NCBI GenBank assembly: GCA_040954595.2
Contig: CM082585.2
Location: 11,673,079-11,730,719, forward strand
Length of the DNA stretch: 57,641 nt
From: Balanoglossus misakiensis
Lineage: Eukaryota; Animalia; Hemichordata
Reading direction: 5' to 3'
Shown here: positions 30,601 to 57,641 of the stretch, piece after piece
Layout: each line of letters opens with the position of its first letter
Numbering within the stretch: position 1 is the first letter of the stretch
Made by a program: the position numbers and the translations under genes
Notes under the pieces: model-generated
What the model was told of the DNA's origin: nothing
Databases searched by the model: none
What the model saw: the letters and a program-made list of their open reading frames with translations, nothing else

Positions 30601-31433
30601 ACTCAAATTTGCAGTTATACCTGAGTGTCAATATCACAGATGATTTTTTATTTCTCCACTTTATTTGATAACATCTTTACAATGGTAAAGGTACTTATTG
30701 TGTACAGTGGACAGGTGAGATCATCTATAATGCAAGATTCGGGACAGACAAGCAATAAAATTTGGCCTTGAGTTACCATCATAAAATACACACAACAGGA
30801 AAGATCACACAAAAATGCTGTGTTTGCCACTGTGTGACAGATTGGAGAGTGATATATGACAAGGGCGCTGATTGGATAATAAACGTTCTATGAAGAACGT
30901 ACCAAATATGTTAGCCAATGGCGTGGCGTGTAGTACACGGACAGGGTATTCATGCAATGTACCAGACGACAGTCTTGCAGACGACATTAAATGTCAATAT
31001 CTCTAGTTCAAATTTACATTGCCATATTTTACTTTCATTCAAGACAATGGAATACTTTTGTCGCATTCTCGTCTTCGGCTTGTATGATGCAAAATATCGC
31101 CAACTCGTGTGAATAATTTGTCAATCCCAGGCCAAGGATGTGAGGTTCTATAAAGTATAAAGTTCTAGCTCTGTCGAGGATCATTACCGAGTTACGACCA
31201 GGGGAGATCTACGTTCTGTAACACGATAAGAGATCATCGAGGGGGATTTAGGTCAACGACTTGGTCGACATCGTCCCTTGGCTGATGCATGCATTGTCAT
31301 TGTATTTTTAGGTTCAACGACGTTTAGTATTTATGACAGTCATCATTGTACTGTGTTGATCGAAAGCTGGGCCCCACTTACCGCTTAGTCCCGCGCCGAT
31401 TACAATAACATCGTGACGACCATCGCTTGCCAT
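24631..31433 (-). CDS. Flavin-containing monoamine oxidase (MAO-A/B-like) with a C-terminal membrane anchor
   Basis: Exon 1 [18 protein letters not shown] (31433-31382) is followed by a 3-kb intron. Later exons give [33 protein letters not shown]...[34 protein letters not shown] (covalent-FAD Cys), [19 protein letters not shown] and a hydrophobic tail. Confidence 0.93.
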
Positions 31434-33387
31434 TCTGTGATCGTGAAGTCTTCGAATGTAGAGATATCAGCGATTACTAATTCGCTTACAAAATAATCAC
31501 TTCTTTCAGATCAAACACCGCGATGAACCGTGCAGGCTCCGCCCACCTTTATACAGAATAGCAGACAACTGTCGTCCCCAGCTAATCAATGCAAGTGCAA
31601 TCACCTTTTATACTAAACTCCCTAGCTGGTTGAAAATCGCTTACTTCGATTTACACACCTAAGTTACAAGATTTGCTACTTCTACCATTAATTTAAGCTG
31701 TTTTTTTTTTAATTTCCATCCATTTTTTTCCACACTTCAATTCACATCCCTTTTCAACTTACCGACTGCTTTTCAATGATTATTTTTTACTCTCTGTGCT
31801 GTGTCAGCCATTTGTCCTTGGTGGCAAGTTGTGATCAGATTCCGATAAAGAGGTCCAGTCACCCACGCTAATCGAAAGAAAGTGCCATCTCTAGAGAACA
31901 TTGTATCATTCATTTAAATATATTCCTCAGAAGAAGATGCCTCTAATACATAGCAACACACAAAAGTTCATGCATTCTCACACCAACTCATACCAACACA
32001 CAAAAACAGTGACACACTAAATGCATAAAACTGAATTGTATTAACACAATGAACTTATGTACAGCACGAAAAGTGTGACTTAAATTTGTCACCAACAATT
32101 CAACTGTGAAATGCCCATAATAACATTAAAATGAACTTTCAATAATAAACATATATAATTATATAAATATCATACAAGTGCGATTTGTAAATTGTGAAGA
32201 ATTATCTCGTAATACTTGAAAGATGCAAGGCTACTGTAATTTACTTTGTCAAAAAACAACAGATGAAATGAGAACACTTGATAGGCTACAGGCCAGTGAG
32301 AAATAGAAACTCTTAACAGCAAATTATAAGCATCAACATCTGCATATCCAGCATATTCAGTGAAACCTAACTGTACATGAAAGGATCAAGAAAGTTGATA
32401 TATCGTCATGTATACAGCACACAAATGACTGGCCATGAAGGCAACAGCATACAGCTGTCTCCCCAAGGGAGCATATAATATAAAGAGAAGTTTGAAAATT
32501 GCTCCTGAATTCAGTCAAGCAGTTATTGAAGTGTACAACTTACATTCACACTGATGAGATTTAATACTTTCAAGTGAGCTATGAAATTGTCATTGCTGTT
32601 ATGAATATGCGGACAATTGTAGTTCTGGCCGTTGGTGGCGGTATCACACTCCCAAGAGTCATTGCAGGCAATACTAACTGCAGGGAGTGGCCCACTAAAC
32701 AGCACAACTTATCGTCAAAACTTTGAAGTTAATTTGAGCATCTCAGATAGAATGTATAAGATACACTTTAATTTCCATGACTCTGACATGCAGTTTTTGT
32801 CTGTTTGCCTGTACATAGGCTCTGAAACAGTCAAGGAATGTTGAATTTTGTCAAGTGTATCAACTGCTATGGTTATAGTGATCAACTTTAAATGTGAAAG
32901 TACATGAACTGTGCAGGTCTACAACTACTGTCTTTAAGATCTTCAATCTGATCTTTGAACTGTACAAAATATATTTCAGCATGGCAAAAACTTGTTCTTA
33001 GTTTAAAGTTTATTCATTGAATTAGGTGGGATATCGTTGTCCTGACTTATGATTAGGATTTTTTTCATAAAAGTGAATTTAAAATTTATGAAAACTTAAG
33101 GAACTTCAACATTTTTGAACTGTCAATATTATTTTGCAAAATTTGTTAAATTCAACATGTTACTTGAAAGGTCTATAACAAAATTCTTCAACTACATGAA
33201 AACTTCAAAAACATTGCCAAAATCCCGCAAATGTTAGGGTATACACTTTTTCAGAATATTCCGTCGTTGAGGTTTGACTTCGTCCTCACACCTTCTCCGT
33301 CCACAATGGTACAGTCCATCGATTCCAAATACAATAGGCTTGGACCACTATGTAGGGGTAGAAGAGAGTTTTGATTGTGCGTATTTG

Positions 33388-36300: not shown

Positions 36301-36825
36301 GTTAACATTAACAAATGAACCGTGGCGACAATCGCCCGGGGCCCCCCGGGGGTTGATTAGTGGGCGTGTCACTTGACCCGTAATATTGTCACTATTTGGC
36401 GGGCTCCTTTAAAATTATGCTGTCTGCCTAGGCCAGAAAAGTCAATGTATCGACTTATTTACCCCACATTTTAACAAGACAACCGTACCTTCCTCGAAAC
36501 TCTCATCTTCAAAGCCTTCTAAACGCCTTCTACACTTTTCCGGAAAAGCAGCTTGAATAATCCTCCATCGATTCTGGTCGATCAATTTGTTTTCTCGAGA
36601 TCGCTTTCGGGCCCAGCTGCTGATCCTAATCCTACACATCGGACAGGTGAAGTTGGCTTCCTCGACATTCTTTCGGAAACAGGGCATACAAAGTTCGTGA
36701 GAGCATGGCATGGTTACCGGCTCGATCAGAATCGACATACATATCGGACATATACAATCCGAAAGCAACAAATCTGGCCGATTAATGTCAAGCGTCGGAC
36801 GCGATCTGTCGTCCTTAGCCGCCAT
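33388..36825 (-). CDS. RNF168: RNF168-like RING E3 ubiquitin ligase
   Basis: Exons 36825-36489, 36163-36087, 35966-35793, 35703-35551 and 35364-33388. RING CPICMSILIEPVTMPCSHELCMPC...CPMCRIRISSWAR; EPGEVRKEYEEQ; UMI/MIU motifs; C-terminal MIU-LRM QEELDFQLAMKLQ...NRAKGSRDSYLLR. Confidence 0.9.
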
Positions 36826-37077
36826 TTTGCAAAGTTTTGACAAGTCTCGTTGTGCGCGTGACGAGAAATGACGAAATGTTTATAAATAAATCGAAAAAAC
36901 TGATTACGATGTATTTTAGAAATATTTTGTTCATATCTTCCGAGTATTTGTCCAATTTGGTGTTTTGACCATTTCATAATCTGATTAAGGTATATGGCAC
37001 ACACATTTCCATTTTTGTGATATAATTTCAAAACAGACCTGTTGAACTAAATTTCCCATGAATCTGAGCAAACTAAG

Positions 37078-40000
37078 ATGGCTGCGCCCTGTCCACTTGT
37101 CGCGGGTGAGTTGATATATTGAGTTGACCCGAAAAATGAGAAAGAGTGCATACTTTGACAGTTTGAAAATATGCGACACTAACACGGAGTGAAACAAACT
37201 AGAATTTTGCAAGAATGTTGTGTGAAAGTTCTTTTCTTTGAAGTATCTCGAGTTAGACTGCCACATGGCAATGTTTTCGTCGCACGTGCACGTGTGATAA
37301 TGTACACACCTTCCACGTTGTGTCCCCCTCATACATCTTACCATATTGCTGCAGTTTTGTAGCCCCGCGACTACCCTTGACGATTTTTGTCTAACTTCCC
37401 CATACCATGTGGTACGTCCATGCCCTCACATAAACAGCCGTAGATCCGCAGCAGATAAATGTAGCCCTGAATCCCGTACAGTGTTTTCCGAGAAGGGGGC
37501 GTTGCCCCCAAAAGACTGCCAGAGCACCAGGGTTACAATTATTGCACTTGCATATGTTTGGTTGTATTCTCTTTTTACAGTGCGGGCCTCTGCAGGCACA
37601 TCGTTATTTCAAGGACCACCAGCATTGAAACAGTTTGACAACTTTTCAAGGTGACTATTTATTTTCTCTTTCAGTGACCTTTGACCTTGTTAACCAACTA
37701 AAGCTAATCTTTATACATGTATAACTATGGCCAATTTCATCAGGTCTGTTGGGTTGGATGTGTGTGTATTGCAATTTTCATATAATAGTATATCATTTAG
37801 CAAATACTAGTAATATGTAACAATAAATTAAGTAATGTACATTATATGTCAAATGAATAGTGAATGATCTCTTTCTTCATCTCTTGCAACAGTGACACAA
37901 GCCCAAGATGTAGAGTAATAGCATTCAGTGCTGATGGCAGTCTCTTTGCATGGTGTAATGGACAAGTGTAAGTATTACTTTTCATAAGTTATCTCTTTAA
38001 CTAATGGCTGATCAGCTGTAGCTGATAACAGAAATTGTCAGTAGTTGATGGTGGACAAATTCAGATCTGCCTATGACTGTATTTTCATGCCAGGTTTTGA
38101 AATTTCAACCACGAATGTCTCAACCATCCATGTCCAATAATGTGCGATTTTTCCCCTTGCAGCATAAATATCACCAGTTTACCAACAGGTGACTTTGTGC
38201 AGAGAATTGACCGACCCAAAACTGTGTGTCTGCAGTTTTCACCCAGAAACAACATTTTGGCAACTTGGGAACCTTATGCTGGTGAGTTATAAATCATGAG
38301 TGTTGAATGTCATGTAGCATATTGATTAGGTTGGTACATGTAATATAATGAATGCAGTCTTCTGGGGACTTTGAATTTTAACCCAATTTTGTAGGATTTA
38401 GCAGGAAAAACCATAAACCTACTACCTCTGTTGAATTCAGTTACCAAGGATACACCAGCAGGAACTCCTAATTTGCATTTATGGGATGTGAAGACTGCGC
38501 AAGACCTCAAAGGGTTTGTACAGAAGAGACAAGATACATGGTTAGTGCATTGACTTGCTGGTAGAAATCTTGTCAGGTCCCCTTTTCTCTCTACAATCTT
38601 GTTTGGTGTTTTGAAAGATGTGATGACAGCTAAACCTGATCAATATATTTTGGACATCTTCATACATGCAACAGAAATAATAAAACAAAATTCCCGACCT
38701 ACCTTCTCTATTTTTCTTTCAGGTGCCCTCAGTGGTCATCGGATGAGAGTATCTGTGCCAGAAATGTGAACAATGAAATCCATTTCTTTGAAGGCAATAA
38801 CTTCGGTGGGTACCTCTCTGTTAAAATCTGTTTGGGAAAAAAATTGATGCAGAACATGCATGGCAATGCTTGTTGGTCCAGAAGTCTGGTTGAGAATGTG
38901 TGATGACTCTCACATCATTTGCAGCGCTTCCTACCCACTGATTTTGATTTGATTTGATTTTTCACCCACACTAGACACCATAGTCAGAAAGCTTCACATC
39001 CAAAAGATTGCAGACTTCCGACTCTCTCCAGGTGACATGCCTTGCAAAGTAGCAACATATGTGCCAGGATCAAAGGTAAGATTGCAGCAGCATTATTAAA
39101 AAGTTTATCTGTAAAATATTATTATGATATGAAATACAAATGTGTTTATGAATAATTCAGCAGAATACAAATTTTCTATTTTCCAGGGTGCACCATCATT
39201 TGTACGTGTTTACAAATATCCAAATTTGGAAGGTCCTGGATCGATGATTGCAAACAAGAGTTTCTTCAAGGCTGACAGGGTCAACATATTGTGGAATAAG
39301 AAAGGTAAGCTATCAACTGAAAATCTACATGTACACTCCAGGATATTCAATGGGGATATTATAAGCCCAAAAGAGAATACATATCACTCCTATAGTTGTT
39401 TCTGTTGAAATATTGTGTTATATTTTACATCTTGACCATTCCTCACAGGGACTGATTTGTTGGTGATTACAACAGTAGACGTTGACCAAACAGGTGCATC
39501 ATATTACGGTGAACAAGCTCTTCATTACATCAGTGCAAATGGAGAAACAAGTAATGTACCTCTGGGTGAGTAGCCTGACCGCGCTCTGTGAACTCTGACC
39601 TATGACACCTAGAATGACTCCTGTTACGTTGCTTGGTAGCCCATGACCTTCAACTATCAATGCAGGTGGGCAAGTTTGATTTGATGTTCCCGTAAAAACT
39701 ATCAATGCACCTTTGCTAAGTTTAAGTCTCTATCATGTAACATTGGCATTTGTTTTTCCCTTTCCAGCCAAGAAAGGTCCTATATATAGTGTAGATTGGA
39801 ATGTGAATTCCACTGAATTCTGTGTTGTGTATGGATGTATCCTTTGTTGTTTTCATGTCTAGTTTTAGACAATGTTTTGAATTCTTTCTCGAAACATTTG
39901 TGCCAGACCTTGGTTGGGTTCTGACTTCGTATTCTATGTCTATATCTAATTGCCAAAGATATGTATTCTAGTCATGGCTACGTTGTAGTTACATCATGTG

Positions 40001-42324
40001 TGTTTGAGATCACAAAATAAGGCCATGACTTCCAAATATGGATAACAAGAGCGATACTCCTTAACTGAGTGACAGTTATGCCTGCCAAGGCAACATTGTT
40101 CAACTTGAAATGTGAGCCTGTGTTTGACTTTGGTACTGGACCCAGGAATATTGTACACTACAATCCACAAGGAACCAATATCCTTTTGATATACGTTTAG
40201 TGTCACTGTTCAATTTTCTATACATATAGTTCAGATAGATGATACAGACAGACACTGTAGCATGCACACATTCACACGTGCGTGCACCTACACAAACACA
40301 CACGTACACACATACACATGTGCCACAAGCTCACCGACATGAGAATCACTAAATGAACTTTAACAAAATTTTCCCTAACTGTTGTCACTTATTTGCTTGG
40401 CTGGATTTGGTAACCTGAGAGGAAACATGGTAAGTTAATTATGCAAGGAAAAGGTGTGCAGAGTTTAACAAAAATTGTAACGTTTCTCCCACTGGACCGT
40501 GTACTGTTTGTCTTGCCTCACATGAAAATGTCCTCCATGTAAATTTCCTAGCCACGCATGACCTTGCAGAGTCTTGTGGAGTTCTGACAATAACGCATCT
40601 TAAAATGTTTAATTTCAGGAATTCTGGGATCGCAAGAATCTGAAGAATATCAGCAAGATGACCGCCAGTGATTCGACTCACTTTGAATGGTCTCCAGATG
40701 GCGCTCACTTCTTGACTTCTACATGTTCACCCAGGTTGAGAGTAGGAAATGGGTGAGAGAGGGGGTACTTTATGGGATAAGCTGGGCTTTGTGGGGGCAG
40801 ATAGGTTCATAACCTGGGTATGTCATTTAAATGACTTTGTCTCATTGGAGCATGTGTCTTTATAAAACACTGTCTGGGAGTAATGAATATACAGTGGCTG
40901 ATTTCATGGTTTGATTAGTTCGATGTCTTCAAAGCAGTGAGGTGGATGTCAATCAATTATTAGAGAATACAATTTTGTGTACTTAGGTTCAAAGTCTGGC
41001 ACTATACAGGAAGTTTACTGTACGAGACAGAAGTAGGGGAATTGTGGGAAGCCACCTGGCAGAGTTTCCTAGAGGGAGTGCTCCCAGAGAAACCAATAGT
41101 GTACCAAGCTGTTCCATCATCCGTCAGCCCCTCCAAACCAGAAGCAAAACCTAATGCATACAGACCCCCAGCCCTGCGAGGACAGCCCCACAAAGCCATT
41201 AGCGTGGTAAGTACAGAAATCTAGTAGAATCAAAAATTGTGAATTGTTACATTACCAGTTATGTTGAGTTGTCCAAATTTAACGTAAAGAATATAGTGCA
41301 CTTTGCAATAGTGTAGGTACAAAACTGACAGGTCAAATCCTCGTCTGTTTTTCCAGCACGCTCGGGAGGAGGAATTGCCACAGAATATGAAACCCAAAGG
41401 AGACAGTGGTAAGAAATGCTACATTTTCTCCAGAAGTGTGAATTGCGCCCTCTATGCCAACAGAGTGAATGAATGGGGGATGGAAAAAAGACAGATCCAG
41501 TCTTGTTTGAAAGTGGTTGACTATTCAAACTGCTTTGTCAGTTATGTTATGCCCCTTTTCTTCTTTTTTACAGAACATTTATCAAAGTCTGCTCTGAGGA
41601 ATAAAAAGAAAAGAGAATCGAAAGCAAAAGGCAAACACGAGGTGAGGATTTGTTAAGATTAGTTTAGAGTGTGATGAAGGGGAAAGAACATTGGTCATCT
41701 TAACAGACAGAATAGATGTCTGTGATATCTAATAGTATTTTTGTTTTCAAATTTGAAGGATGAGTTATCCCAGGAAAAACGAGATGCCATCGCCATGGCA
41801 GCCTACGTCATGGCTCCATCTCAACCAGCACCACATGTCCAGAATACTTTTGACCCAGACAGCAGTGGTGCCGATCCTGAGACAGAGAAAAAAATCAAAG
41901 GACTGAGAAAGGTAGACCTATATTGTTAGTTTTTTGCAGATGTAGTCTAAAGGGAATAGAGACTCTTAAAATATTAACAACCCCATGTTGGATGAAAACC
42001 AACCAAAAATCTGTACTTGGAATGGATTTTGGTGCCATTTTCCAAACATATCAAATTTTCAACATTGAACACAATATAGATACCCAAGAGAGCAGATTTT
42101 TTTCAAACTGAATATTGCAAACTCTGAGCTCTGTGAAATTGGAATAGAAGTGTTGCTAGGAGATAGGTCTTTAATTTGCTTTTAAATTTGTTTTCTAGAA
42201 ATTGAAGCAGATCGAGAAGCTAAAAGAACAGGCAGCATCAGGAAAGCAACTTGAGAAAAACCAGTTGGAGAAACTTGCAACGGAAGACGCCATACTGCAA
42301 GAACTGGAAGAACTCAAACTTTAG
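37078..42324 (+). CDS. EIF2A: Eukaryotic translation initiation factor 2A (WD/beta-propeller)
   Basis: MAAPCPLVAVRAS..., KSFFKADRVNILWNKKG, SYYGEQALHYI, KKGPIYSVDWN, FCVVYGFMPAKATLFN, LAGFGNLRG, EWSPDG, SPRLRVGNG, AYRPPALRG, KLKQIEKLKEQ...LEKNQLEKL; TAG at 42322-42324. Confidence 0.96.
39837..40075 (+). other. U12-type (minor spliceosome) GT-AG intron in EIF2A
   Basis: Donor GTATCCTTT; branch site TCCTTAAC at 40058-40065, 10 nt from the AG; no polypyrimidine tract. Splicing restores VYG-F-MPAK. Confidence 0.92.
40178..40388 (+). other. U12-type AT-AC intron in EIF2A
   Basis: Donor ATATCCTTT; branch TTCCCTAAC at 40371-40379; acceptor AC at 40387-40388. Splicing restores NPQGT-I-ICLAGFGNL. 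Confidence 0.92.
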
Positions 42325-43529: not shown

Positions 43530-46500
43530 TCAAATCGTATTACTGATTACAGTATTGCGAATGTCTTGGAGGCTGAAAGCTGTGTTGAAGACAAAGTTTT
43601 CTGGGTCTTTCTGTTCCATCAGCATAATCCCTTTGCCACTGACTGCTAAGTAGAGACCTACAGAGGAAAACAAAACAGAATCTGTCTAGGTTACAATATT
43701 CTTGCATAGTAAAGAGTTATCTTGGATCAGATTGCAAACAAATGTTTTTAGATGATGAGAGAAAAGTAGTAAATGTATTCATGATTGCTTACCTCTAAAA
43801 TATGCTGACTCAAAGACATATCTATCTGTACCCTTAGCCCACAGTCTGCGATAAAACACTCTGCCATCAACATGTTTCAACTTCTCCAGGCTGACAAAGC
43901 CCACCTTCTGAAAAATAGAAAGCATTGGATATATTTTAAAATCCCCACTCATTTTTGGTGTGAAAGTAACCTTAGCTATTTATATACAAGAAAGCCATGA
44001 CAACACTTAGTTTTCAAGTTTGAGAATTATTTTACCTTGAATGTCAGACTGCGATTACGTCCTGTTGAAACGGCCAGGCACTTGTTGAATTGTTGGTTGA
44101 AGAGTACGACCGCAAGATCTGGATCGTCTGGGTTGACTTCATTTTGTATGTCGTATGGCCACAGAACTTTGTACTGGTACATTGTCCATTGTCCTGCAAT
44201 TATTCACAGAAGGAATAGACTAATTTAGAGATAAAAAGTTCAATACTTACAATCATCTTGCATCAATCAAGATACCTTGCTGAAAACTGTTTTCATTCTC
44301 TGCCATGTATGAACAAAAATCTGTTTTCTCTCACCTTCTTTGAAATCATTATTTGCCGCCACTACTTGCAATCGATTCCTGTCAGGCATGGCAACAAAAG
44401 AACTGGAATCATTGGAAGGATATATATATGTGTTGTATCTGTCATAGTAATGCACCATGGGGAATCCATCATCAGATTTATCTATGTATTCCCTCTCCAA
44501 GACAATTGTCTCAAAAACAATTTTGCCATCTGGAAATCAAACAAAATAGAATCAGATTAGCAATTGAGTGTTGCACTCAACATACAGCCAATATGTCACA
44601 GTTTCAGGGAGGAAACATGTCCTTGTGAACAAAACGAGACTGACCATCAAACTAGCATACTTGGTTTTATCTCTAACTTTTTAAAAAGAAACTTCATTGG
44701 CCAATACACCGACACACAATAATTGAAGGTGGTGTAAAAACTCACTGTCAATCAGAATGTCTATCTTGATTTCAATAAATGTGTACACTTCAGTTGGTCC
44801 GTCATCTTCATCATCATCATCGTCGTCGTCATCATCAGGCTCAAGTTCTATCTTTCTCTTCAAGATCTGCAAACACAAAAATATTTCCATGCTATTGAGA
44901 ATTGTTCCAACTCTTTAATCACATGGCAGATGTTAGTAAATGTTCATTCAATTACACACTGTCACTGCATGAAATAATTCTGAAAATGTACATGCATGCA
45001 ATTTGACCACCAACTTTTACCAAACTTTATTCCTATTTTTATCCAGGACTGGTGACTTTGGTTAGATTAGTATTTGCTAATGACTGTTTGTGGAGGACGT
45101 GACAATTTTGCATACTTACAAATATAATTTGTCCGTCCATTTGATGAAAACGGTCTAAGATATCCCTGTGTTCAGCTGCTGAGACATCAAGGCCATTAAC
45201 TGCATGCAGAACATCACCAACTCTGTGAGATTGAAAATATATCATGTTACAAGAGGACATTAAAGTTTGATCCAACTCGGGGAGAAAAGATTATTTTGCA
45301 GTGTTCTGCTGTGTTTGTGACAGCAGTCTTTAGTCACCTTTCAATGTTATCCAATACACAAGACCACATCAAAACTGTGTATGCGACTACAATGTTCCGA
45401 CTAAAATACTATATGGCAGCTACATTAATACCTCAATTTGGTTTTCTTTACAAAATCATGTTGTTCTTCTACCGCCGTAATTTTGTGCTTCTTTCTATCT
45501 GGAGTTTTGTCGTCGACATCTGTGCTGAATTTTACTCCCAGTGAGTGAAGATGATCATCCGTGCAAGGTATTTTGATGTCAGATTCCTCATGGATTATTG
45601 GTGCTTCCTGTGCAGCAGTCAATACATAAAAACAATTAGTCAAGATCTGCTTTGTTTCATCATTAAAAAACAACATGCACTAAATGCCTGTACTCTAACA
45701 CTAACCAGGCATTGTCTAAAATATTATTCTGGCTTTCATTAACGTTTTTGTTTTATTAAAACAATCAAAGCAATCTTATCTTTTAGCTATTTGGTATAAA
45801 ATATACTCCATTTCTGTGTTTGTAAACAAACAAACAAACAAACAAACAAACAAACCATGAGAGAACATCCCATGGCCATATCCCTGTGATGGAGCTACAC
45901 TATCTCCATCATGGGTTTTACCGATTGCATAATTTAAAGGCTATAAATAACCGAGGAATTTCCCTTACATTGCAGAGATGACAGCTCGAACTTCCGTATT
46001 TAAATACATGTACGGCCAAGATTGCCCAGCGAATTTAGTGAAGTATGTACAATTTCACCATCGATGGCTGAAATATGGTTCGTGAATAACCCCAATCGTG
46101 CCACGGCGCAAGGGTCAAACCGGCGAAGAAAACGGTGAGTGATTTATAGACCGCGGAACCACCACTTGTAATGAATTATCTGAGTGGAAAAACGATCGAA
46201 GGGGTTGGGGAAAATTTGCCAATAGGATGACATGAAATTGACAACTTACCATACTATCCTGTGCTCGTATACAAGGTGTTATCACCTCGATCACTTTGTG
46301 TTCAAAGTCTTCCAGGCGGGAATGAATTGTGCTTGTCAAGGAGCCAATGAAGGATTCACTTTCCACAGGACGCGATTTTTGAAGCCCGCTGACTCTCTCT
46401 TCTCCGCACAGCTTTCCATCAACGCTGTCGTCAAATTCACCATCGAGGCCCAGACCTCGCATGGCGGTTGTGAACGACTTCTGTTTTTTAAATGCGCGAG

Positions 46501-46546
46501 GATCAGGCGATCGCGATCGAGATCGAGTAGTTTTTTGTCCAATCAT
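43530..46546 (-). CDS. Leaderless 430-aa protein with a PDZ-like domain, an acidic linker and an IL-1/IL-18-like beta-trefoil cytokine domain
   Basis: Eight phase-compatible GT-AG exons (46546-46250, 45607-45432, 45222-45120, 44866-44746, 44529-44335, 44193-44036, 43907-43793, 43657-43530; 1293 nt). PDZ: SLGVKF...ITAV...LRVGDVLHAVNGLDVSAAEHRDIL. C-terminal domain: QWTMYQYK...LAVVLFNQQFNKCLAV...SLTFK...RVFYRR...YVFESAYFRGLYLAV...NTAFSL. Confidence 0.8.
45955..45964 (-). promoter_or_regulatory. NF-kB consensus site in intron 1 of the IL-1-like gene
   Basis: GGGAAATTCC on the minus strand matches GGGRNWYYCC. Confidence 0.45.
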
Positions 46547-46634
46547 GTCGAAGTCTCCGATTTTTTTCAGAGTGTGTCTCGGTTAAACATCTACTAGTAA
46601 AGTTCCCAGGCTGTCGAATGCTCAGGCTGTCGAT

Positions 46635-46681
46635 ATTTATAGACATGGAAATCCGTGACGTGTACAGACGGGGAATTCCCC
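46635..46681 (-). promoter_or_regulatory. Candidate inducible promoter of the IL-1-like gene: TATA box, CRE-like site and palindromic NF-kB site
   Basis: Minus-strand TATAAAT at 46641-46635, TGACGT at 46656-46661, and GGGGAATTCCCC at 46670-46681, 124 bp upstream of the ATG. Confidence 0.7.
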
Positions 46682-47584
46682 ATCGGGAACAGTTCACTAT
46701 TCAGTTGGGTAGGTCAACATTTTTGGTGGTGTTAGCAAACTTATCAATTTCAAAACATTCGAATTATTGTAGGAAATCAAGAGTAGCGTACGCCAACCTT
46801 GGGGTCCGGTGTGTATTTTTATGACATTTTTCTTTCTTCGATATTTTTGCAATCCCCCCTTTTAAAGTTGGTCCTGCACACCCCTCCGTCGTGACTTTGG
46901 TTTACACCGATCGCAACCCACACATTTCCATATTTGGCAGCTCCAGCGGAAATCAATACGAACACAGGAAGTCAGAGTCAATCGACTTTACATGATGTAA
47001 TATTGCACGTGTGAAGCTCAAGAAAAGTTGGAAATGAGAAAAAAAGCATGAAACATAGAGGCTGTGCGTGATTTTTTTTATAACAAGCGTTGTCTTGTCA
47101 TCTGCAAATTTTGGCAAGACAATTTGAGATGGCGGGGGGGGGGGAACAACACAATACACATAATTAATCTTACAGCAGTTATCATTTATTGTAAAATCTT
47201 GGATACCAAACTTAAGACCTCAACACACTACTTATTTGCAAATAATTGGACAAAATCACTGACATTTCATTTCATTTTGGTTAATTTCTTCTATTTGGTA
47301 ACTATATGAAAGTTCAAAAAATATCCTCACTAATTTACAAATCTATTGCAAACATGATGTTGGTCATTCTTTATAGTAAAGACTTGTACTATAAAAAAAT
47401 TTCATGTAAATAATTATTTTGCTACACACTACAAATCGGACATTCAAGGTTTCTTTGACTTTTCTGATGTGATGACCTTCGATATCTGAAAGTGTGATTA
47501 TCTTTGCCAATACAGTGCAATTGGGATGATGATTAGTATCTTCCCTATCACTGCTGATAATTCAATCTTTATAGAGTGATCTAA

Positions 47585-47669
47585 CCCTTTCATCGGCATG
47601 GTTCAGTCCAAACCCATTGTTTTCTATGGTAAGGCTGGACCTCTAAAGAGCGAACTAGGGGTGAAAGGG
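47585..47669. mobile_element. Short piggyBac-like MITE (85 bp)
   Basis: TIRs CCCTTTCA...TGAAAGGG, flanked by CTAA (degenerate TTAA) on the left and TTAA on the right. Confidence 0.6.
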
Positions 47670-48017
47670 TTAATCTATTGGACTTCTGGAAGTTGATGCA
47701 AACATGACATTCATAACCCAAATTGAGTTTCAATTTGTATGGACATCATGTACAAACACTTGGCAGTTGGATCTTTACAAGAAACATGTACTTTTCAGTG
47801 GTGGCGGCGTCAGCTAAAAACTGCATTTCTTGGACATAAGATACAATTATCTACTTAAAGCAATTATAACACATTGTACATGTGTCGGACATTTCTTAAA
47901 GCTCTCAACTTTTCAGCAGCTTTTGAGTTCTACGTTTACCAAATGTCTTTTGGCCACAATTGCTTATTTCTGACACTAGCATTTGCCAGAAATTGTGATG
48001 TCATTTTAAAGTCAAAA

Positions 48018-51000
48018 CTAAATTGCGATATCAGGAACATGTTCATGATGGACCTGAGCTTTAATGTTTTCTCTTTTCGTTTCATCGTCGTCCACACTTA
48101 CAGCGACAAAGTCTGTTTCTAGTGCTGAATCTGCACTCACTGCAGTTCCACTTCTGGTAGTTACACCCCCGTTGTCCAGTCCCGGCCCGTCCACCAGGTC
48201 AGAGGTCGGTGAACCGCAATACCCACTCTCACCCGATGAGCTTATCTGCCAATCGATCAGATTCTGTCGCTCCAACTCTTCCGACTGGAGCGTCTTCGAC
48301 TGATCAGATATAGCCTTCAGGGCGTGGGATCTCCCTGACGGACTTCTTGGTAACTGCAGCAACAATGTCTTCCAGAATTTGGCGGTTTTCTTCAAATTGT
48401 CCGGTTGCCATTTCAGACAATTTGTGACCCTGATGATGTGTTTCAGGGCTTTCATGTGATCAATATCTGCATTGGCTGGAAGTTCTTTGGCAATGATGAT
48501 TACCAGGTTGCTGTGGAGTTTGAGAGAATGTTCTAATGCCACGTTGAATTGAAACGAACTCCAATGCTCCTTCAGGTAGTCGGGGGTCAGCACAATGATC
48601 CAACTTTGGCTGGCTTCAATCGACTCAACAACACTATCTGCAATAGCTATCATACAAATACAAATGAAAAGTTAGTAAAACGTGTGATTTTTTGGAAATT
48701 TTTACTTTCAAATCTATAAATTTCTGATGTAGTTTTGCAACAATGCATGTACAGGATACAGTCATTTGATTAACTTTTGATACACTGATTATAGAATATT
48801 TTAGGTTTAATCAGAAAGCAATTATGACTTACCAGTTCCAGCCAAGAAATCTCTTTGCTCGACACAAAGTTTGAATCCGCACTTTCCCTCAAGGTAGCGC
48901 ATAATGACATATTTGACAAAGCGAAAATCTTGATCTGTTCCACTGTGTGAGATGAACACATCATACTTCTTGTCATCTGTGGAAACAGAACACACATGTG
49001 GATGAAACTGTATGACACATGGCAGTTGCAATGTGCTACAAACAGGTATTGTCTTCCTAAAAAGTTTATACTACATTCCTGATTATTAAAGATACAAAGT
49101 CTCACTTTTAGTACGGTAAAGAAATTTAAAATTTCAAAAAAATTATCAAAAATTTATCAATATTAAAGTTACATGTTTATCATCATGGCCGATCTCAGTG
49201 ACGCAAATTCAAATTTTGGCCTTGAGTGAGAAACTTCCAGGTTTTCCTGTTAACTTCCATATTTATTTTGTGTGCAAACAATTATCCGGTACTCATATTC
49301 AGCAGATACCGGAAAATTCCAGTTAATGACGGACAAAATTTGGGTCAGGGACTGCTGTACTGTGACCTATATTCCTGCCCAGTTGAATGCTCTGCAATTC
49401 TCTGGTTTGCTTCATACATCCTTCATTGCACATGGGGTCTTTGGTAAACTGGGTTTATATTAGAATATTTCTCTGGAAGTGTATATAAACCAAAGTTCAA
49501 AGACTGACGATCATATTTCTCATGCGTGTTTATCATTGGAGCACGTATTCAGGACTATGACCCAGTTATCTTTGGCACTGATGAATGGGTGAATGCACTG
49601 GCTCTATAGACATTAAAAGCCATGAATACTATTTCCAAGAAATTTTATTCTGGGGGGGATATGGTGAGCAGGAGTGGGGTGCTTTGAGCAGAAGAAAAGA
49701 AACAAGTTTGACAATTCGTGGCGATAATGTTACATTCTTTGGAACGTGGATCCGGACATGTTTTTCACGGAATAGAACAGAAATATATTTCTTTGAATAC
49801 AGTAATCATCCTATCAGTTCCGCTGTACAGGTTATAAGGTCAAACACAGAATGATGTCTGAGTATCTTATGTCTGGACTGGTCTTTTGAAATTCTTAAAA
49901 TTTTCTCAGCATATCTCAAATATCCATTGTTGAAGTATTACCCAGCATCTAGGTTTTTTTGAAATGCGATAACTGGGTTAAAAGGTTTATGAGGCTTTGA
50001 TATGATTTAAAGGCTGACACCAGTGAACCCACTTGTAATTGTTTGACAAGGCTACGTGACTTGAATCCTATGACCTATATATGGTACTGGTTAAAACCAA
50101 TTTTGGTTGTCACTGTTTTGTAAATATTTTCACACCTGTTGAATATTAGGCTTGTGCTTTCGCAGTGGTATTACCACATGGTTCAGTACAAGGAAAAACA
50201 TCAACAGCTTTGATGAGAGAACAAACATTAACTAATGGAATGTTTATCAAACTGCCCTCTTGATGACATCACAAAACTGGTTTTGGTCACTGGACCGCTC
50301 GCGTAAACATGTTAACAACCGACAACAAGGCGGTGACTGCCCTATTGTGAGTTGTGACCCCACGAAAGGTGTGGCAAAAGTCCAAGGAGGGGTCATGACC
50401 TCCAGGAGGCAGCTATAAAAAAAAATAGTACCATATACGGTAGTAAGTTGCTGATCAATTTCCGTAGGAAATTACCATCACCTATTCAACAAAGACTGAA
50501 CAGGCCAGCAATTAACTTACATAATGTTGAGTAATCGAAGAACTGCGGACCGGACCGGAACTACAAGTAGGAATGTGCTCTTTAGAAAATATAACACAGC
50601 AGTGTAACTGAATAATACACTCATGATTTCTACATATCGTGTTTTATGGGAAGAGCTGATCTGTAATTAGACTCTGGTTATGAAATGTGATATTGTATAT
50701 TGCACATTTCTCCGTCTCAAGAAGGCAACTCAGTCTTTTTGAGTTCAATCAGAGTTCAGAACCTGATGGGCCTGCAAATATACCAGATATCACTAGAAAT
50801 ACTCAGAGACCAGGTGTATGTAGACCATTGTGGTGGCAGTTTTGCATGTCCTCAAGATATTCTCTTTGAATTTAATTTTGTAGGTATGTGTATAACATGT
50901 AATTAACAGACTGGTGGAAAACAGTTTAAAATTCATGTTTGTCCCTTCTTTTATTATATATATATTTGCTTAAATAAATATTAACATATTTGGAAGAGTA

Positions 51001-53646
51001 ACGCAAAATGGACATGACTCCAAGATCATTTACAAATACATAAATCTGCATGCATGAAATATTGATAAATCTGTGAAATATATTATAAAGAATGTTGAAT
51101 ATTTCTGTATGGTATAAATATCTCTAACACTGTAAAAAACTCCTCTGTATCCAAGTCTGTATCTGTATATTGTAGAATTCTTCAGGTCTTTCATAAACCC
51201 TTGAGGCTCTTGGTGAAACACTACCAAGACTATCATAAAAGCAGACTGCTGATTGGTTATTGCTCATCTTCTGTGGTCACTCCAACCAATTGGAACCATT
51301 CTTCTGATACACTGTGAGATGTCGCCAGGTCATAACACCGCTTCTTACATTTTTGCACTGGCAGTCAGAAAGAGGCTGTTTATGTGTTCAACATCCCAAC
51401 CATTACCTCTAACCCCCCCCCCCCCCTAGATGAAACCCTGCAACTCTCATTGTCAATGAAAGATCAACAGTTCTAAGAAAAATTCTTAATCTTTTCTTAA
51501 GTAAATATTTCTTGTAAAAATGTCTATGAATTTAAAATTCACACATTTAACATTATCTCACTAGTTTCCCCTTTACTATGTAAAATTGCTACATAGCAGC
51601 TTATCACTGTTACTAATATAGTACAACAAAGAATCTTATGTATTCAAAAGACGATAAATGGTAACAAATGCATGACACAGCATATTCTACCAGGGTCTAG
51701 TATGTATGTTGCCTTTCATGTGGAGAGCGCCTTCTAGTGGTAAATCTGGCAGTTCATGTTTTACTTGAACATTTCTTTGTCACCTTCAGCCAAAGATTTA
51801 AGAAAAATACTACTGTATCTTCGATTGTTTTTGAAACCTTTTTTATACAACATGTTTGTCAAATGTGTTATATGTGCTTCTGTTGTCTTCCGTTTTGAGG
51901 TTTGTGCGATCCTTTTCTGGCAGAGAGGGCGCTTTCTCGAGTGAGGGAGGACACTTACCATTTTTTTCCACTTTGCCAAAATTGTACTTGTAGATGAGTT
52001 TTATATCAAGTTTGAATGTCATGCCAAGGGCGGACAGAATGAGTGCCATGATGACAATCGATGAAAGGACTATAATTATGATCAATAGGGTTGTGCTTTC
52101 TGCAGTTGAAGGTCCTGGATTTGGATCTGAAAGAAAATGGAGAACATTCTAAATTGAAAAGTATTGTATTTGATATGTACAACGAAAGTTATTATTTATA
52201 ACTAGCCTACTTTAAAGGCCAATATTTGTTGATGTTAGCATTTCTATAGATTTTAACAAATGATCACTTTTTCACTTTTTAAATCAGGGATACAGTTGCA
52301 TGCTGTTACCCTCACAGCCAGTCAATATGCATATACTATATCCCCCTGGAGTTGCTTTGTTATCTGCCTCTGCAAATGTACAATAAACAGACTTACCCCC
52401 ATAACTCAGTACCAAAGGAATATCTATGCTTCCATGGGCGTTGACTGCTTTCACTACATATGTGGCATAAGTAGACGCTCTTATGTCTTGTATGTAAAGA
52501 TATATGCCGATGGTTTCATTGTCATCTCTGAAATCAATACACAAATAATTTTGTTGTTGTTGTTGTTGTTGACTAGTTTTGTTTGGTTATCAATTGCAGT
52601 CCTATCCTACCATTGAATACAACAGGGTGGAACTATATTTTCATGGAAAGGGTCTTGCTATTTGCCTCTCACCTTCCCCTCTGTCTGGTACTGTATGTTC
52701 TGTTATCTAAGTCTTCTATGAAGTAATGACTTGTCTGGTTGTGCTTGTACCAAAAAATCATCTTGTCTTCGTCTCCACCATGTCCAAAGAAGAACTCGCA
52801 GTAGAACGTCACATTAGAGCCATGGAGTCTGGTGTAGTTACGGCAACGTGTCGAGTTCAGCTGGTGGGGTTTCTCTGTAAACTGCATTGCTGTGTGTGTA
52901 TGGGAAAAGTTTGAAAAACAATTTGCTTTGTTAATTTTTAACTGAGAGTAGTGATGATCTGACGGAATTGAACACATCTGTACTTTGGATTGAATGTACA
53001 CCAATATACTGCAATTTATTCTCAACAGAGCCATACAGACATGACCATGTACTTGAAAAATTCAAAGAAAATCTTACGTTTGGCCTGTAGTTCTTTGGTG
53101 TGGCTGATTGTACTTGTTCCATTGGAAGCACTACATGTATAGCTTGCCTCATCCCTCGTCATCAAATACCGGAATACTAAGGTCTGGTTTCCATTATCCA
53201 TGAAAGTCTCTGCTTGATCGACCCCTTTCCATGGATAAGGATCAGAGCCTTTATACCAAGTCATCATCAAATACCCTTCGGCACAGCACGACATGTCTTT
53301 GTATTGGGTAATGGTTCCAAACTCAAGATCACCCATGTCTGGGTTTGTGAACTTGAAAGTGTCATCTATATTGAAAAGAAACAGCAATCAAATACCAAAA
53401 GATCAACTAAAAGTACATGATAATGATACCCCTAACTATTGACTTGTCATAAAACTGAAAGTTGTTTTATAAAAGCGAAAGTTGCGTATTTAATTACATC
53501 TTGGTTGTCAAGTTGTGAGACCCACCTTCATCGTGCCCATTAAACTGATCACAGACGTTTTTCCCATGAGCATGGAATACCAAAATCGAAGACAATATTA
53601 TTATGACTATTCTGGACTGCAGTGGACACCTTGTCAGTTGTTCCAT
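48018..53646 (-). CDS. IL-1 receptor-like protein: signal peptide, 2 Ig domains, transmembrane helix, TIR domain and long C-terminal tail
   Basis: Exons 53646-53526, 53365-53078, 52889-52673, 52527-52397, 52126-51959, 48976-48833 and 48646-48018. Ig1 C...TWYK...DEASYTC; Ig2 VTFYC...FWYK...ATYVVKAVN; TM LLIIIIVLSSIVIMALILSALG; TIR YDVFISHS...FKLCVEQRDFLAG...SIEAS..WIIVLTPDYL...FWKTLLLQLP. Confidence 0.92.
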
Positions 53647-53731
53647 GGTTTTCAATGAACTGAAATAGTAAAGCAATATCATTTCGGATGTTATGCTATT
53701 TTACACGTAAATGATGAATTCAGCATAATTT

Positions 53732-53741
53732 GGGAAACCCC
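53732..53741. promoter_or_regulatory. NF-kB-like site just upstream of the ATG-bearing exon of the IL-1R-like gene
   Basis: GGGAAACCCC on the plus strand, GGGGTTTCCC on the minus strand. Confidence 0.45.
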
Positions 53742-54593
53742 GCCTGCGTCATCGCCTTACAAAGGAACTGATGAAGTGCGGAGGAGTGCGTAACGGCCCG
53801 TACGTCATTAATCTCACCCCTGACTTTGTTCATGTATGAGCGTGACCAGGAAGGTCCAAGAAAGTAACTTACAAACACAATGTTGGTCTGATCACAGTGA
53901 CTGTGCTGATCACCATCACCATCAGTAAGATCAGGATGTGACAACCGTGTTCCACTTTCAAAAACTTTGTACACAACATACATTCCATGCCAATATTACC
54001 TTAAATAATTACGGACTCATGTTACTTTCAACGTCATGTTGCATTTCATAGCCGCGTGATGACCTCATTTGACTCGGACGCAAAGCGCGCGTTTTAGGGC
54101 AAATTCCAGGAAATCGCCGCCTTAGAACCGGAAGTAAATAAATGTGACTTCAGTACAATTCAAAGTAGGCAAAGATGGCTAGAATAGCTTCGCAGACATA
54201 GCCATTTTACCTGTTTAAACTATTTTACCCCACTGCGATTTTAAAGTTTTAATTAACACAGTTGCTAAGCAACCAGACGCCACAGCCGGCCCACCAAAGG
54301 TACAACCCCTCCCTACCATACTTACCCACCCCCATCAATTCATGAATTGGTCCAGTTCAGTTCCTCTTGCACTCAATGCGCAGTCTCTGTCCACGTTCTT
54401 GCAAAGGTGGCACCCTTCGACAGTGAAGAACTTTGTTTTCATTTTCCCTACCCGGTACTCCAGTATTCTTGCCAATATAGAGTAGTTGTGTAGAGGGTAC
54501 ACGGTTTGTCAGGTCAGTAGTCTTTTCATCAAAGACATTCTTGTGGGAAGATCGTACCAAATAATTTATTTGACGCTTTAAAACCCTTCGACC

Positions 54594-57500
54594 ATGGCGG
54601 TGAGTAATGACTACAGGTTGTGGTGTACATTTGTACGACAACCGAACTTCAGAAGAGATTGGAGATATTACCGTGGTGTGAAGGTGGAAACGGGGAAATG
54701 GGATGGTGGGTTTGATGGGAGTAACTACTGTAGATGTTATAATTAAGTCCTAACACCCACAGATTCCCTGGTGATTGTGTATTGCAAGGTACATGTAGCC
54801 TGGATAGGCGTTTACAATACATGCCATCACTAACCCTGGAACAGCTGAATGTGATGCCAGGTCATGCAGTGATGGATGTATTGTATTTGATGTGTTGGCA
54901 CAGCCATGGAGTACATTAAGCTACTAGTAGTACCTCAAATGGTCTAGCCTAGAATCTATAACATTGCTTATTTTGGGTCACAAGTGGATTCTATGTGTAT
55001 GGAGTGACCTAGCTTCAGCTCAGTAGCTCGAGGTTAAACCAATAGGCAAAAACCTCGAGGTAATGAAGTGCAGCTAGGTGTGACCTAGCAAATGTGCAAA
55101 TTAAAATCAACTGTAGAGATAGGCTCCAACCTTCCGCTGCTAGATGTAATTGATGCTTGCAGGTTTGTTCTTCTGCTGTCACCTCTCTGCAAAAGAACAA
55201 GAGCAGAAAGAGGCAAACACCCAGCAAATGTAAAGGTGGCACCTATCTCTACAACTGGTTTTTATGCATTCTAAAAATTAACTGCAAATTTTGAAACCAG
55301 GTGACATTTGTTATTCCGAACTGCGTGACTAAGCCCCTTTTGATAATGGTATATTAGAAAACTGTATGCTCCTTTAGCAAGTGTGGTTTTTGCATGTATT
55401 ATTTTCAGTTTGCATGCAACATGTGGCCGGGATATTAGTGTTTACCATATTTATCCTATTGTGGATGGTTTTGTAAATTTACAGAGCTGTACAACAACTC
55501 TCTCATTATTAAGAAATCAGATGTTTCAACTTCTGGAGAAAAAACCTACATAATAAGAATTAAATAATTCTAACATTGACTGTTGTGAACAAAAAGTTGG
55601 GAGTTTTTTAATGCAGGGTATTTTTATGGCATAGACTATGAATAGAAAAAGTACAGTAAATCTGTTTGGAACAACATCATAACATGTGTTACATACTGAT
55701 CTGTTTATTTATGGGTCAGTGATTTATAAAATCAGCGTATTATTAAAAGGAACGACACAGGTCCAGGTCATGGATTCCCTGATTTCTATCTCTTCTATTG
55801 GTTGGAAATCTGGTCAACATTGGAAAATGGGATAAACATAAGGACCAAAATGGCCAATTGATTCATTTTCTTAACCTTTGACCTTTACAGTCAGATACAT
55901 GGGGAGACTGGGATGAGAAGTTTCTATCGGAGGAAAAACACCAATTTGGAAAGATGAATGAAGAGAACAAAGAGGCAGCGTCACCGGGCGGAGAAGGGGC
56001 AACGAAAACCACCCCACAAAAATCAGGAAAGGTAAGGATGGAGATTTACAACGCATTTGCAAAGGTTTTCAACAGAATTTTTATACTACTCCATTTATGG
56101 CTGCTCAGTGTAATAAGTGTTGGTTTATTGCTGACCTCTGCAATATTATTTGTTTCTTGTCCAGCTGGATTCCTTGTCAAGGGAAGATTTGATCAAGTAT
56201 ATCAAAAAACAACAGATACTGGTCCAGAAAATCAGAGCAAAATGTGATGGTAGGTGCATAGCAATGAAATCATCAAAAATTAAAGTGGAATGTGATTTCT
56301 TCATTTTACATCAGCAAGTTTTGCTTCTTCGTTACCCTTTATTTCAGCAAATACATTCAATTTTTTTTTACAGACTTAGCCAAAAAGAACACAGAACTGG
56401 AAAAGGATAAGAATGATAGCTCGAGTGCCGAGGGCCAAGGCAAAATTCAGGTGAGTTTGACAATGAAATGTATGATAAAGATTAACTGTTAGTGCATGTA
56501 TGTGTTGTGTTAGTCTAGAGATTATCTGGTGATTTTCCCTGCAAATAGGAATGTCTATAGACTGCTATGAGAACCTCTAAGCAACTATTTCTGCATTGCA
56601 GGAGTTAGAGTCTGAACTTGCAGACTTGAAAGCTGAACACAAAGAATTGATGGCCGCTTATAGTGGTGTCCAACTACAACAGGAAAATTCAGTGCAAATC
56701 CATGAGGTAAGAGAATGTTACATGCAGGCACATATACCTTACATAAAGTATTGACAGAATAGGTGGCGGTTTTGAACAAATTAGACAGACATTGTCAAGT
56801 TCAGATTTGCAATGGATATTTCCCTAAGAAATCTAATAAAGACTAATATTGATCTCCTTTGTAAAATAAAAAAATGATTCTAGGATCTACAAAGTAAGGT
56901 CAGTGAATGGACAGAAAAGTTTACAAAAAGTGAAGAAGAAAAGAAAAAAATCCAGGAACAGTATAATGCTGAGGTGAAAAAGAATCAGGTGAGTTAGTCT
57001 GTGCTGGAATGAAAGAATGATACTGATTGGCTACTTGACACCAACTGCTTGTTTAAATATCCAATTGTCTGCTGTTTTTTAAACTGGGTGATTTGAAGAC
57101 TCTGTTGGTACCCAGCATGCATGTGAGAATCCCCTCTTCCCAACAAATAGGGTTGCAGCAAAAATAGTTCAATCTTTATGCTGTTGATAAAGTTGGGTTT
57201 GTGGGTAACCTTGGTGTGTGTTGGTATTAAGGTGGTTCCTTCCATGTTCCCTTGGTTATTAGAACATGGCAGAGCAGTTTGAGTGCATGAAGATGAAAGA
57301 GGAAACCATGGCAACCACATTCCAGTGTCTGCAAGAGGAGTGTCAGAAGCTGACTCAGGAGAAAAAAGTAATGCCTTTATTTACAACATACCGGTATTAT
57401 CAAAAGAAAAAATTCAGAAACAAATGCATGTGTAAATCAATGTTTATGCATGTTGAGACAGAATTGTGTCTGATTGACCCTTGACCTTTGAACTTGTGGA

Positions 57501-57641
57501 TCATTGCAGGACTTGAGTGATCAGGTCAGTGTTTTGACCGTGGCCAGAGATGAAACCATGAAGGCTATGAAAGCGCTGAAGCAAGAGCAGCAGGGTAGCG
57601 ACAGTGCCAGCGCTCAGCTGCAGGTCCAGATAGAAGCTCTG
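54594..57641 (+). CDS. GCC2: GRIP and coiled-coil golgin GCC2/GCC185, 3'-partial
   Basis: TPQKSGK|LDSLSREDLIKYIKKQQILVQKIRAKCD matches the GCC2 N-terminal motif and is followed by coiled-coil exons. A tentative first coding micro-exon ACC-ATG-GCG|GTGAGT (54594-54599) splices in frame to 55891; otherwise the start is 55954. Confidence 0.82.

What the first reader, a model, noticed from the sequence alone, without database searches (positions are those of the whole stretch)
43530..57641. IL-1-like / IL-1R-like / GCC2 adjacency echoes human chromosome 2q11-q14
Seen: the three genes are immediate neighbours. Knowledge: the human IL1R cluster (2q11-12), GCC2 (2q12) and the IL1 ligand cluster (2q14) share one region. 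Other genes in the window also map near IL-1-pathway paralogs: EIF2A and RNF168 on 3q with IL1RAP, MAOA/B and INTS6L on X with IL1RAPL1/2, and RNF169 on 11q with IL18. INTS6 and RNASEH2B are both at 13q14. Inference: this may resemble the pre-duplication ancestral IL-1 locus.
Basis: partly seen in the sequence, partly recalled or inferred. Interest (0 to 1): 0.7.

Follow-up and report, generated by a model that had tools for sequence, protein, structure and literature searches.

The report
Acorn-worm ancestral IL-1/receptor/GCC2 gene cluster
This stretch, likely from an acorn worm, holds a likely ancient interleukin-1 gene beside an IL-1-receptor-like gene and a probable GCC2 gene, an arrangement already published as the ancestral IL-1 locus, while its match to the human IL-1 ligand cluster on chromosome 2 is probably coincidental.

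Summary
The adjacency is real. EIF2A is followed by an 8-exon gene for a leaderless 430-aa protein (PDZ domain, acidic linker, FES-motif C-terminal domain), then an 8-exon signal peptide/2-Ig/TM/TIR receptor, then a coiled-coil gene that is probably GCC2. Closest relatives found are from the acorn worm Glandiceps. The ligand-like gene fits the IL-1anc family. The IL-1anc/IL-1R/GCC2 cluster, including the EIF2A link in hemichordates, is already published as the ancestral IL-1 locus (PMC13736523). The human-2q echo holds only in part. The receptor-side mapping fits one old linkage group, but nearness of GCC2 to an IL-1R gene is then not surprising (rough chance 0.09-0.19). The ligand side likely fails: chicken has IL1B on chr22 (older build) and the IL-1R cluster on chr1, IL1B keeps other neighbours, and vertebrate IL-1anc sits at a separate locus lost in amniotes. 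Added here: kappaB-like sites in both genes, one in a kappaB-CRE-TATA promoter, suggesting a co-induced feed-forward pair; and Ala instead of Pro in the receptor's BB loop. My fold tests of the trefoil were inconclusive and binding is untested.

The parts
43530..46546 (-). IL-1anc-type gene, 8 coding exons: 46546-46250, 45607-45432, 45222-45120, 44866-44746, 44529-44335, 44193-44036, 43907-43793, 43657-43530. 430 aa, no signal peptide, basic N-terminus, PDZ domain (exons 2-4), acidic linker (aa 201-214), C-terminal domain with FES motif (aa 382-384, exon 7)
   Evidence: Gene model; hydropathy; 48%/43% identity to Glandiceps XP_077987627/6; PDZ in the homologue; motifs
46634..46681 (-). Candidate promoter of the IL-1anc gene: palindromic kappaB-like site 46670-46681, CRE-like half site 46656-46661, TATA box 46634-46641, 88-135 nt upstream of the ATG
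   Evidence: function inferred
45955..45964 (-). kappaB-like site in intron 1 of the IL-1anc gene
48018..53988 (-). IL-1R-like receptor gene, 8 exons: 53988-53873 (may be partly untranslated; the Glandiceps protein aligns from exon 2, second ATG at 53646), 53659-53526, 53365-53078 (Ig1), 52874-52673 and 52527-52397 (Ig2), 52126-51959 (TM), 48976-48833 and 48646-48018 (TIR plus tail of about 110 aa)
   Evidence: Model and BLASTP; Pfam TIR and Ig; best PDB TIR hits IL1RAPL2/1; homologue ectodomain hits IL1RAPL1
53732..53741 (.). kappaB-like site (matches on both strands) in the receptor's first intron, about 90 nt upstream of the second ATG
54594..57641 (+). 5' part of a coiled-coil gene, probably GCC2/GCC185; tentative 6-nt first exon 54594-54599, then 55891-56031, 56165-56249, 56374-56450, 56602-56706, 56884-56988, 57263-57367, 57510 to window end; head-to-head with the receptor
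   Evidence: Model; identity recalled plus published linkage, not confirmed by tools
37600..42324 (+). EIF2A gene (start approximate), tail-to-tail with IL-1anc; the published marker of the ambulacrarian IL-1anc locus
   Evidence: linkage

Best explanation
This is likely the acorn-worm copy of the published ancestral IL-1 locus: an EIF2A gene, a leaderless PDZ-containing gene of the IL-1anc type, a two-Ig TIR receptor gene and a probable GCC2 gene lie side by side, and the cytokine and receptor likely form an NF-kB-induced ligand-receptor pair. Shown: gene order, exon models, domains, kappaB-like sites. Inferred working: infection-activated NF-kB switches on the cytokine through the kappaB-CRE-TATA promoter and the receptor through its intronic site; the leaderless precursor is cut, probably by a caspase at an aspartate in the acidic linker, which frees the beta-trefoil from the PDZ pro-part; it leaves without a signal peptide, binds the Ig ectodomain, and the TIR domain, likely with a partner chain, reactivates NF-kB (about 0.45 for this whole chain of steps). 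In vertebrates the old linkage group was duplicated and scrambled: IL-1R genes and GCC2 likely stayed on one descendant segment, IL-1anc stayed elsewhere and was lost in amniotes, and the IL1B cluster likely reached human 2q separately.
For: Architecture and the 8-exon layout match the family description (PDZ in exons 2-3, trefoil in exons 5-8, FES motif, no signal peptide). By eye, two stretches match the paper's Ptychodera IL-1 at 19 of 23 and 26 of 33 residues. Atlas nearest clusters for the homologue's C-terminal part are IL-18/IL-1/IL-33 (6 of 7 rows shown, best 0.86, a lead only); weak Pfam IL1 hit in 1 of 4 homologues (E 0.091); the top 5 and top 4 Foldseek rows are IL-1-family (none significant). 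Receptor TIR exon scores best against IL1RAPL2/1 (E 6e-11 to 2e-10) over SIGIRR and TLRs (E 3e-6 and weaker). Glandiceps ligand and receptor homologues are each on a contig of the same length, 25,030,103 bp. The paper reports IL-1anc linked to IL-1R and GCC2 in hemichordates and to EIF2A in all ambulacrarians. kappaB-like sites: 4 of the window's 7 lie in the two genes; shuffles give mean 0.37 and 0 of 500 reach 4. Chicken and human gene positions.
Against: My two AlphaFold models were of the Glandiceps homologue, from shallow alignments, and poor (pLDDT 43 and 44); no trefoil match was significant and the wide structural search gave only Z<5. With the whole Glandiceps receptor as query, TLR15/TLR2 TIR scored about as well as IL1RAPL2 (65 versus 66.5 bits), so IL-1R clade membership is not settled and no tree was built. 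The paper notes that vertebrate one- and two-Ig family members are inhibitory, that the domain layout may be convergent, and that only 1 of the tested IL-1anc proteins was cut by caspase. The BB loop has Ala where IL1RAPL2 has Pro. One of the four kappaB-like sites is in coding sequence, the motif was looked for after the genes were named, and their share of the window's sites is only modestly high (P 0.024). GCC2 identity is unconfirmed. Chicken IL1B was unplaced in the later build.
Confidence: 0.85

Rival explanations
1. Human 2q11-q14 as a whole (IL-1R cluster, GCC2 and the IL1 ligand cluster) is the direct, continuously linked descendant of this locus.
For: The human receptor and ligand clusters are 10.5 Mb apart, and GCC2 lies between them (recalled). 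A rough genome-wide chance of any of 3 ligand loci falling within 11 Mb of any of 4 receptor loci is 0.085. CKAP2L, tied to IL1B, has a paralogue at 13q14 near INTS6 and RNASEH2B (recalled), so IL1B may have moved out of this linkage group long ago.
Against: Chicken IL1B on chr22 (v2.1) versus receptors on chr1; eight flanking genes of non-mammalian IL1B loci map to human chr7; IL1B neighbours are CKAP2L, SLC20A1, PSD4, OGDH, none recognised among this window's genes; vertebrate IL-1anc lies in a region distinct from the IL-1alpha/beta locus.
Confidence: 0.1
2. The cluster is ancestral, but the receptor is not the signalling receptor of its neighbour: it is an inhibitory or accessory chain, or a convergent Ig-TIR fusion outside the vertebrate IL-1R clade.
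For: Only two Ig domains, a long tail after the TIR and Ala in place of the BB-loop Pro; vertebrate one/two-Ig members are inhibitory; convergence has been proposed; TLR TIRs score close to IL1RAPL2 for the homologue.
Against: Both TIR and ectodomain find IL1RAPL1/2 among their best PDB hits; linkage to IL-1anc is kept in cnidarians and most ambulacrarians; both genes carry kappaB-like sites.
Confidence: 0.3
3. The PDZ protein is not an IL-1 homologue, and the adjacency is chance.
For: No window exon hits Pfam IL1; my fold tests were not significant; the trefoil fold can arise convergently.
Against: Close match to the published Ptychodera IL-1anc, same exon layout and FES motif, IL-1-family nearest neighbours in three weak searches, and published cross-phylum microsynteny.
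Confidence: 0.05

Closest known systems
Ancestral IL-1anc/IL-1R/GCC2(/ESD) locus (Fontenla-Iglesias et al., Nat Ecol Evol 2026, PMC13736523; preprint PMC12338702)
   Same: IL-1anc next to a putative IL-1R and GCC2; EIF2A adjacent; PDZ plus FES-motif domain; no signal peptide; 8 exons; ESD not seen in the window, as reported for hemichordates.
   Different: Sequence differs from the Ptychodera and Saccoglossus proteins listed, so another species; one IL-1anc gene in the window where Saccoglossus and Glandiceps have at least two; kappaB-CRE-TATA promoter not mentioned in the paper's main text (0 hits for 'promoter' and 'binding site').
Vertebrate nIL-1F / IL-1anc (fish; PMC7144542)
   Same: PDZ domain plus IL-1 family domain.
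   Different: 7 coding exons in lumpfish; reported as an IL-1beta antagonist in some fish; different immediate neighbours.
Vertebrate IL-1 receptor family (IL1RAPL1/2, IL-1RAcP, SIGIRR)
   Same: Signal peptide, Ig ectodomain, one TM helix, TIR domain; best TIR hits IL1RAPL2/1; long C-terminal tail.
   Different: Two Ig domains instead of three; BB-loop Ala instead of Pro; ligand unknown.
Human 2q11-q14 IL1R and IL1 clusters
   Same: IL-1R genes, GCC2 (position recalled) and IL-1 ligands on one chromosome arm.
   Different: Spread over more than 10 Mb against 14 kb here; the ligands are the classical PDZ-less type; ligand and receptor clusters are on different chromosomes in chicken.

Membership tests
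IL-1anc | N-terminal PDZ domain | tested here: met
   On the Glandiceps homologue (48% identical to the window model): Pfam PDZ_6 E 5e-4, below cut-off; GRIP1 PDZ E 2.5e-5; structural match Z 8.5, rmsd 2.8, 92 aligned. Window exons align across it; single window exons alone gave no Pfam hit.
IL-1anc | C-terminal 12-strand beta-trefoil | tested here: inconclusive
   Low-confidence models of the homologue (12 strands assigned); IL-1-family chains rank first in Foldseek but E>0.001 and rmsd 12-15; Atlas 0.86; wide search Z<5. The paper models the Ptychodera protein as a trefoil (legend).
IL-1anc | (F/L)ES motif in strand 9 | tested here: met
   Single FES at aa 382-384 in exon 7, aligned in 3 of 3 homologues.
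IL-1anc | No signal peptide | tested here: met
   Highest 15-residue hydropathy near the N-terminus 0.13; hydropathy scan only.
IL-1anc | Conserved exon layout (exons 2-3 PDZ, 5-8 trefoil) | tested here: met
   8-exon model against the authors' description in the peer-review file; exact intron phases are in a figure I could not see.
IL-1anc | Immune induction, proteolytic processing | not testable with these tools
   Only indirect: kappaB-like promoter and acidic linker.
Putative invertebrate IL-1R | Extracellular Ig domains, TM helix, intracellular TIR | tested here: met
Vertebrate IL-1R clade | TIR phylogeny groups with IL-1R family | tested here: inconclusive
   Best hits IL1RAPL2/1 for the window exon but TLR15/2 nearly tied for the homologue; no tree built, as no vertebrate sequences were held.
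Vertebrate IL-1R clade | Three Ig domains in ligand-binding chains | tested here: not met
   Two Ig domains in the window model and in P0001; two is the reported invertebrate state.
GCC2/GCC185 | Long coiled coil with C-terminal GRIP domain | tested here: inconclusive
   Only the first 229-252 residues are in the window; Pfam and Atlas gave generic coiled-coil leads; the GRIP end lies outside.
Ancestral IL-1 locus | IL-1anc tightly linked to IL-1R-like and GCC2, with EIF2A in ambulacrarians | tested here: met
   subject to the GCC2 caveat.

The most novel reading that the evidence does not exclude
The cytokine and its two-Ig neighbour are a true cognate, NF-kB-co-induced feed-forward pair kept together since the cnidarian-bilaterian ancestor, and the IL1R-cluster/GCC2 linkage on human 2q11-q12 is a surviving piece of that same block, which would make the invertebrate receptors real orthologues of vertebrate IL-1Rs rather than convergent Ig-TIR fusions.
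Probability: 0.3. Interest if true: 0.65.

Novelty: already known. Interest (0 to 1): 0.27.

Why it matters
The locus itself is published, so this window adds one more acorn-worm example. It is still a compact, single-ligand, single-receptor case for two questions the paper leaves open: whether IL-1anc binds the linked receptor, and whether invertebrate Ig-TIR receptors are orthologues of vertebrate IL-1Rs. The kappaB-CRE-TATA promoter and the BB-loop Ala give concrete, testable predictions. The human 2q ligand-receptor proximity should not be cited as the ancestral state.

Tried and rejected
No whole genome is held, so no paralogue count or wider synteny. No RNA run was listed, so splicing and expression are unverified; this is no evidence either way. 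Word-based homologue search with ligand exon 5 found nothing. The HMMER search gave 23 hits, of which only P0008 matched in a single stretch across the exon; the other 22 are short repeat matches and were dropped. Two AlphaFold runs on shallow alignments gave poor models; the wide structural search of the trefoil part listed no clear family. Complex prediction for ligand and ectodomain was not available. GCC2 could not be confirmed by Pfam or Atlas. Literature searches for a text statement of the vertebrate paralogon or of chicken GCC2 position returned 0 papers; Simakov 2020 (PMC7269912) holds the linkage-group assignments in figures I could not see; one further paper was not held. Earlier findings of this scan: none. 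A hidden gene between the three, or a third Ig exon in the 3-kb receptor intron, was considered and not found (only 1 of the intron's ORFs was scanned).

Full report
Observation. The window is intron-rich animal DNA with no whole genome held. Exon models built from the sequence give three open genes in 43530-57641. (a) Minus strand 46546-43530: 8 exons, 7 GT..AG introns, 430 aa. (b) Minus strand 53988-48018: 8 exons, 603 aa, signal peptide, two Ig domains, one TM helix, TIR and a tail. (c) Plus strand from about 54594/55891 to the end: a coiled-coil frame of 229-252 aa. EIF2A ends 1206 nt from (a). No gene was recognised in the spacers. No RNA run was listed, so the splicing rests on splice signals, open frames and protein homology.

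Gene (a). The only full-exon relative among 23 HMMER hits is Glandiceps talaboti LOC144442221, 48% identical over 322 columns, its longer isoform 43% over 428; two more relatives are 38%. The organism is therefore likely an acorn worm. The homologue has a PDZ domain. The window protein has a basic N-terminus, an acidic linker at 201-214, one FES motif at 382-384 and no signal peptide. These are the features of the IL-1anc family in PMC13736523 (seen: abstract, sections 6, 7, 11, first parts of 12 and 63, passages, and searches of the supplements; figures not seen). Its Table S2 lists a Ptychodera IL-1 that by eye matches two stretches at 19 of 23 and 26 of 33 residues, and the peer-review file describes the same exon layout. 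My own fold evidence is weak: both models had pLDDT near 44, Foldseek ranked IL-37, IL-33, IL-18 and IL-36Ra first without significance, the wide search gave nothing clear, the Atlas gave IL-18 at 0.86 and Pfam IL1 hit 1 of 4 homologues at E 0.091.

Gene (b). It is 54% identical to Glandiceps XP_077988342, named IL1RAPL2-like. The window TIR exon hits IL1RAPL2/1 best; the homologue's ectodomain hits IL1RAPL1 (E 1e-7), but its TIR scores nearly as well on TLR15/2. Clade membership is therefore unresolved. The BB loop has Ala where IL1RAPL2 has Pro, in both acorn worms; that this Pro matters for MyD88 binding and that IL-1R1 also lacks it is recalled. The Glandiceps ligand and receptor proteins are each recorded on a contig of 25,030,103 bp, which suggests one chromosome but does not show adjacency.

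Gene (c). The GCC2 label is recalled from an N-terminal motif and fits the published linkage; no tool confirmed it.

Regulation. The pattern GGGRNWYYCC matches 14 times (7 places) against 2.87 expected. Four places are in the two genes (shuffle mean 0.37, 0 of 500 reach 4; binomial share P 0.024). One is a perfect palindrome followed by a CRE-like half site and a TATA box just upstream of the cytokine ATG; one is in cytokine intron 1, one in receptor intron 1, one in receptor coding sequence. The paper's main text has no hit for 'promoter' or 'binding site'. The search was made after the genes were named, and a match is not proof of function.

Mechanism. Shown: order, models, domains, motifs. 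Inferred from the family and mammalian IL-1 biology: NF-kB induction, cleavage in the acidic linker, leaderless release, binding to the Ig-TIR receptor, feed-forward signalling. The paper shows caspase cleavage for one sea-urchin protein only and says ligand-receptor binding is undemonstrated.

What is known. The paper states that hemichordates link IL-1anc to GCC2, all ambulacrarians link one copy to EIF2A, most link it to putative IL-1R genes, and infers an ancestral IL-1/IL-1R/GCC2/ESD locus (same in the 2025 preprint, passages).

The human 2q echo. Gibson 2014 (PMC4090809; sections 3 and 14, passages) places the human receptor cluster at 102.6-103.1 Mb and the ligands at 113.5-113.9 Mb; in chicken the receptor cluster and IL1RAPL1 are on chr1, IL1RAPL2 on chr4, IL1RAP on chr9, and IL1B on chr22 in build v2.1 (unplaced in v4.0), with eight flanking genes mapping to human chr7. 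Rivers-Auty 2018 (PMC5861070; section 7, passages) gives CKAP2L, SLC20A1, PSD4 and OGDH as IL1B's conserved neighbours and ties the receptor cluster to IL1RAPL2 through MAP4K4 copies; lumpfish data agree that only CKAP2L is shared with human (PMC7144542, passages). Vertebrate IL-1anc is in a region distinct from the IL-1alpha/beta locus and lost in amniotes. So the ligand cluster likely joined human 2q later. The human positions of GCC2, EIF2A, RNF168, RNF169, MAOA/B, INTS6, INTS6L, RNASEH2B and ESD are recalled, not from a call; they fall on 2q, 3q, X, 13q and 11q segments that I recall as duplicates of one ancestral group. That supports macrosynteny, which the paper also reports (legend), but is expected for any genes of one invertebrate chromosome (PMC7269912, passages). 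With assumed segment sizes of 250-550 Mb, a single-copy gene lands within 6 Mb of one of four IL-1R loci with probability 0.09-0.19: suggestive, not significant. The terms 2q14, paralogon and chromosome 2 are absent from the paper's supplements held as text and 'human chromosome' from the preprint, and four searches found no paper on this point, so the IL1R-GCC2 carry-over into vertebrates may be unremarked; figures I could not see may bear on this.

Verdict. Real cluster, correctly read as the ancestral IL-1 locus, already published; the human-2q argument holds at most for receptor and GCC2. Interest 0.27.

Noticed in passing
window 1-42324: Rest of the window: PEX1-like AAA ATPase (about 1-4400, +), RPP38-like L7Ae gene (about 4900-5900, -), RNASEH2B (about 7000-9000, +), aldo-keto reductase (about 10000-14100, -), INTS6 (about 15000-21400, +), MAO (about 22000-32000, -), RNF168 (about 33400-36900, -), EIF2A. 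PEX1 and RPP38 names are recalled from Pfam AAA and L7Ae hits.
   Followed up: partly
window 27697-27707: A second palindromic kappaB-like site inside the MAO gene region; two more matches at 11388 and 12052 in the aldo-keto reductase region.
   Followed up: no
window 48833-48976 (receptor exon 7): TIR BB loop has Ala at the usual Pro position, conserved in Glandiceps.
   Followed up: partly
window 53873-53988: An in-frame upstream exon with its own ATG and hydrophobic stretch precedes the signal peptide of exon 2; the Glandiceps protein lacks it. Either untranslated or an alternative start.
   Followed up: no
window 53988-54600 and 36880-37600: Two head-to-head gene pairs with short spacers: receptor/GCC2-like and RNF168/EIF2A; a shared promoter could help keep the receptor and GCC2 together.
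   Followed up: no
P0008, P0026 (Glandiceps talaboti): Glandiceps has two IL-1anc paralogues (79% identical) on a contig of the same length as its receptor, while the window shows one. P0027, an unnamed JGI protein on a 2395-base contig, is a further relative.
   Followed up: partly
window about 14390-14620: A GAT/CAT trinucleotide-type repeat giving spurious poly-Asp/His/Met frames between the aldo-keto reductase and INTS6.
   Followed up: no
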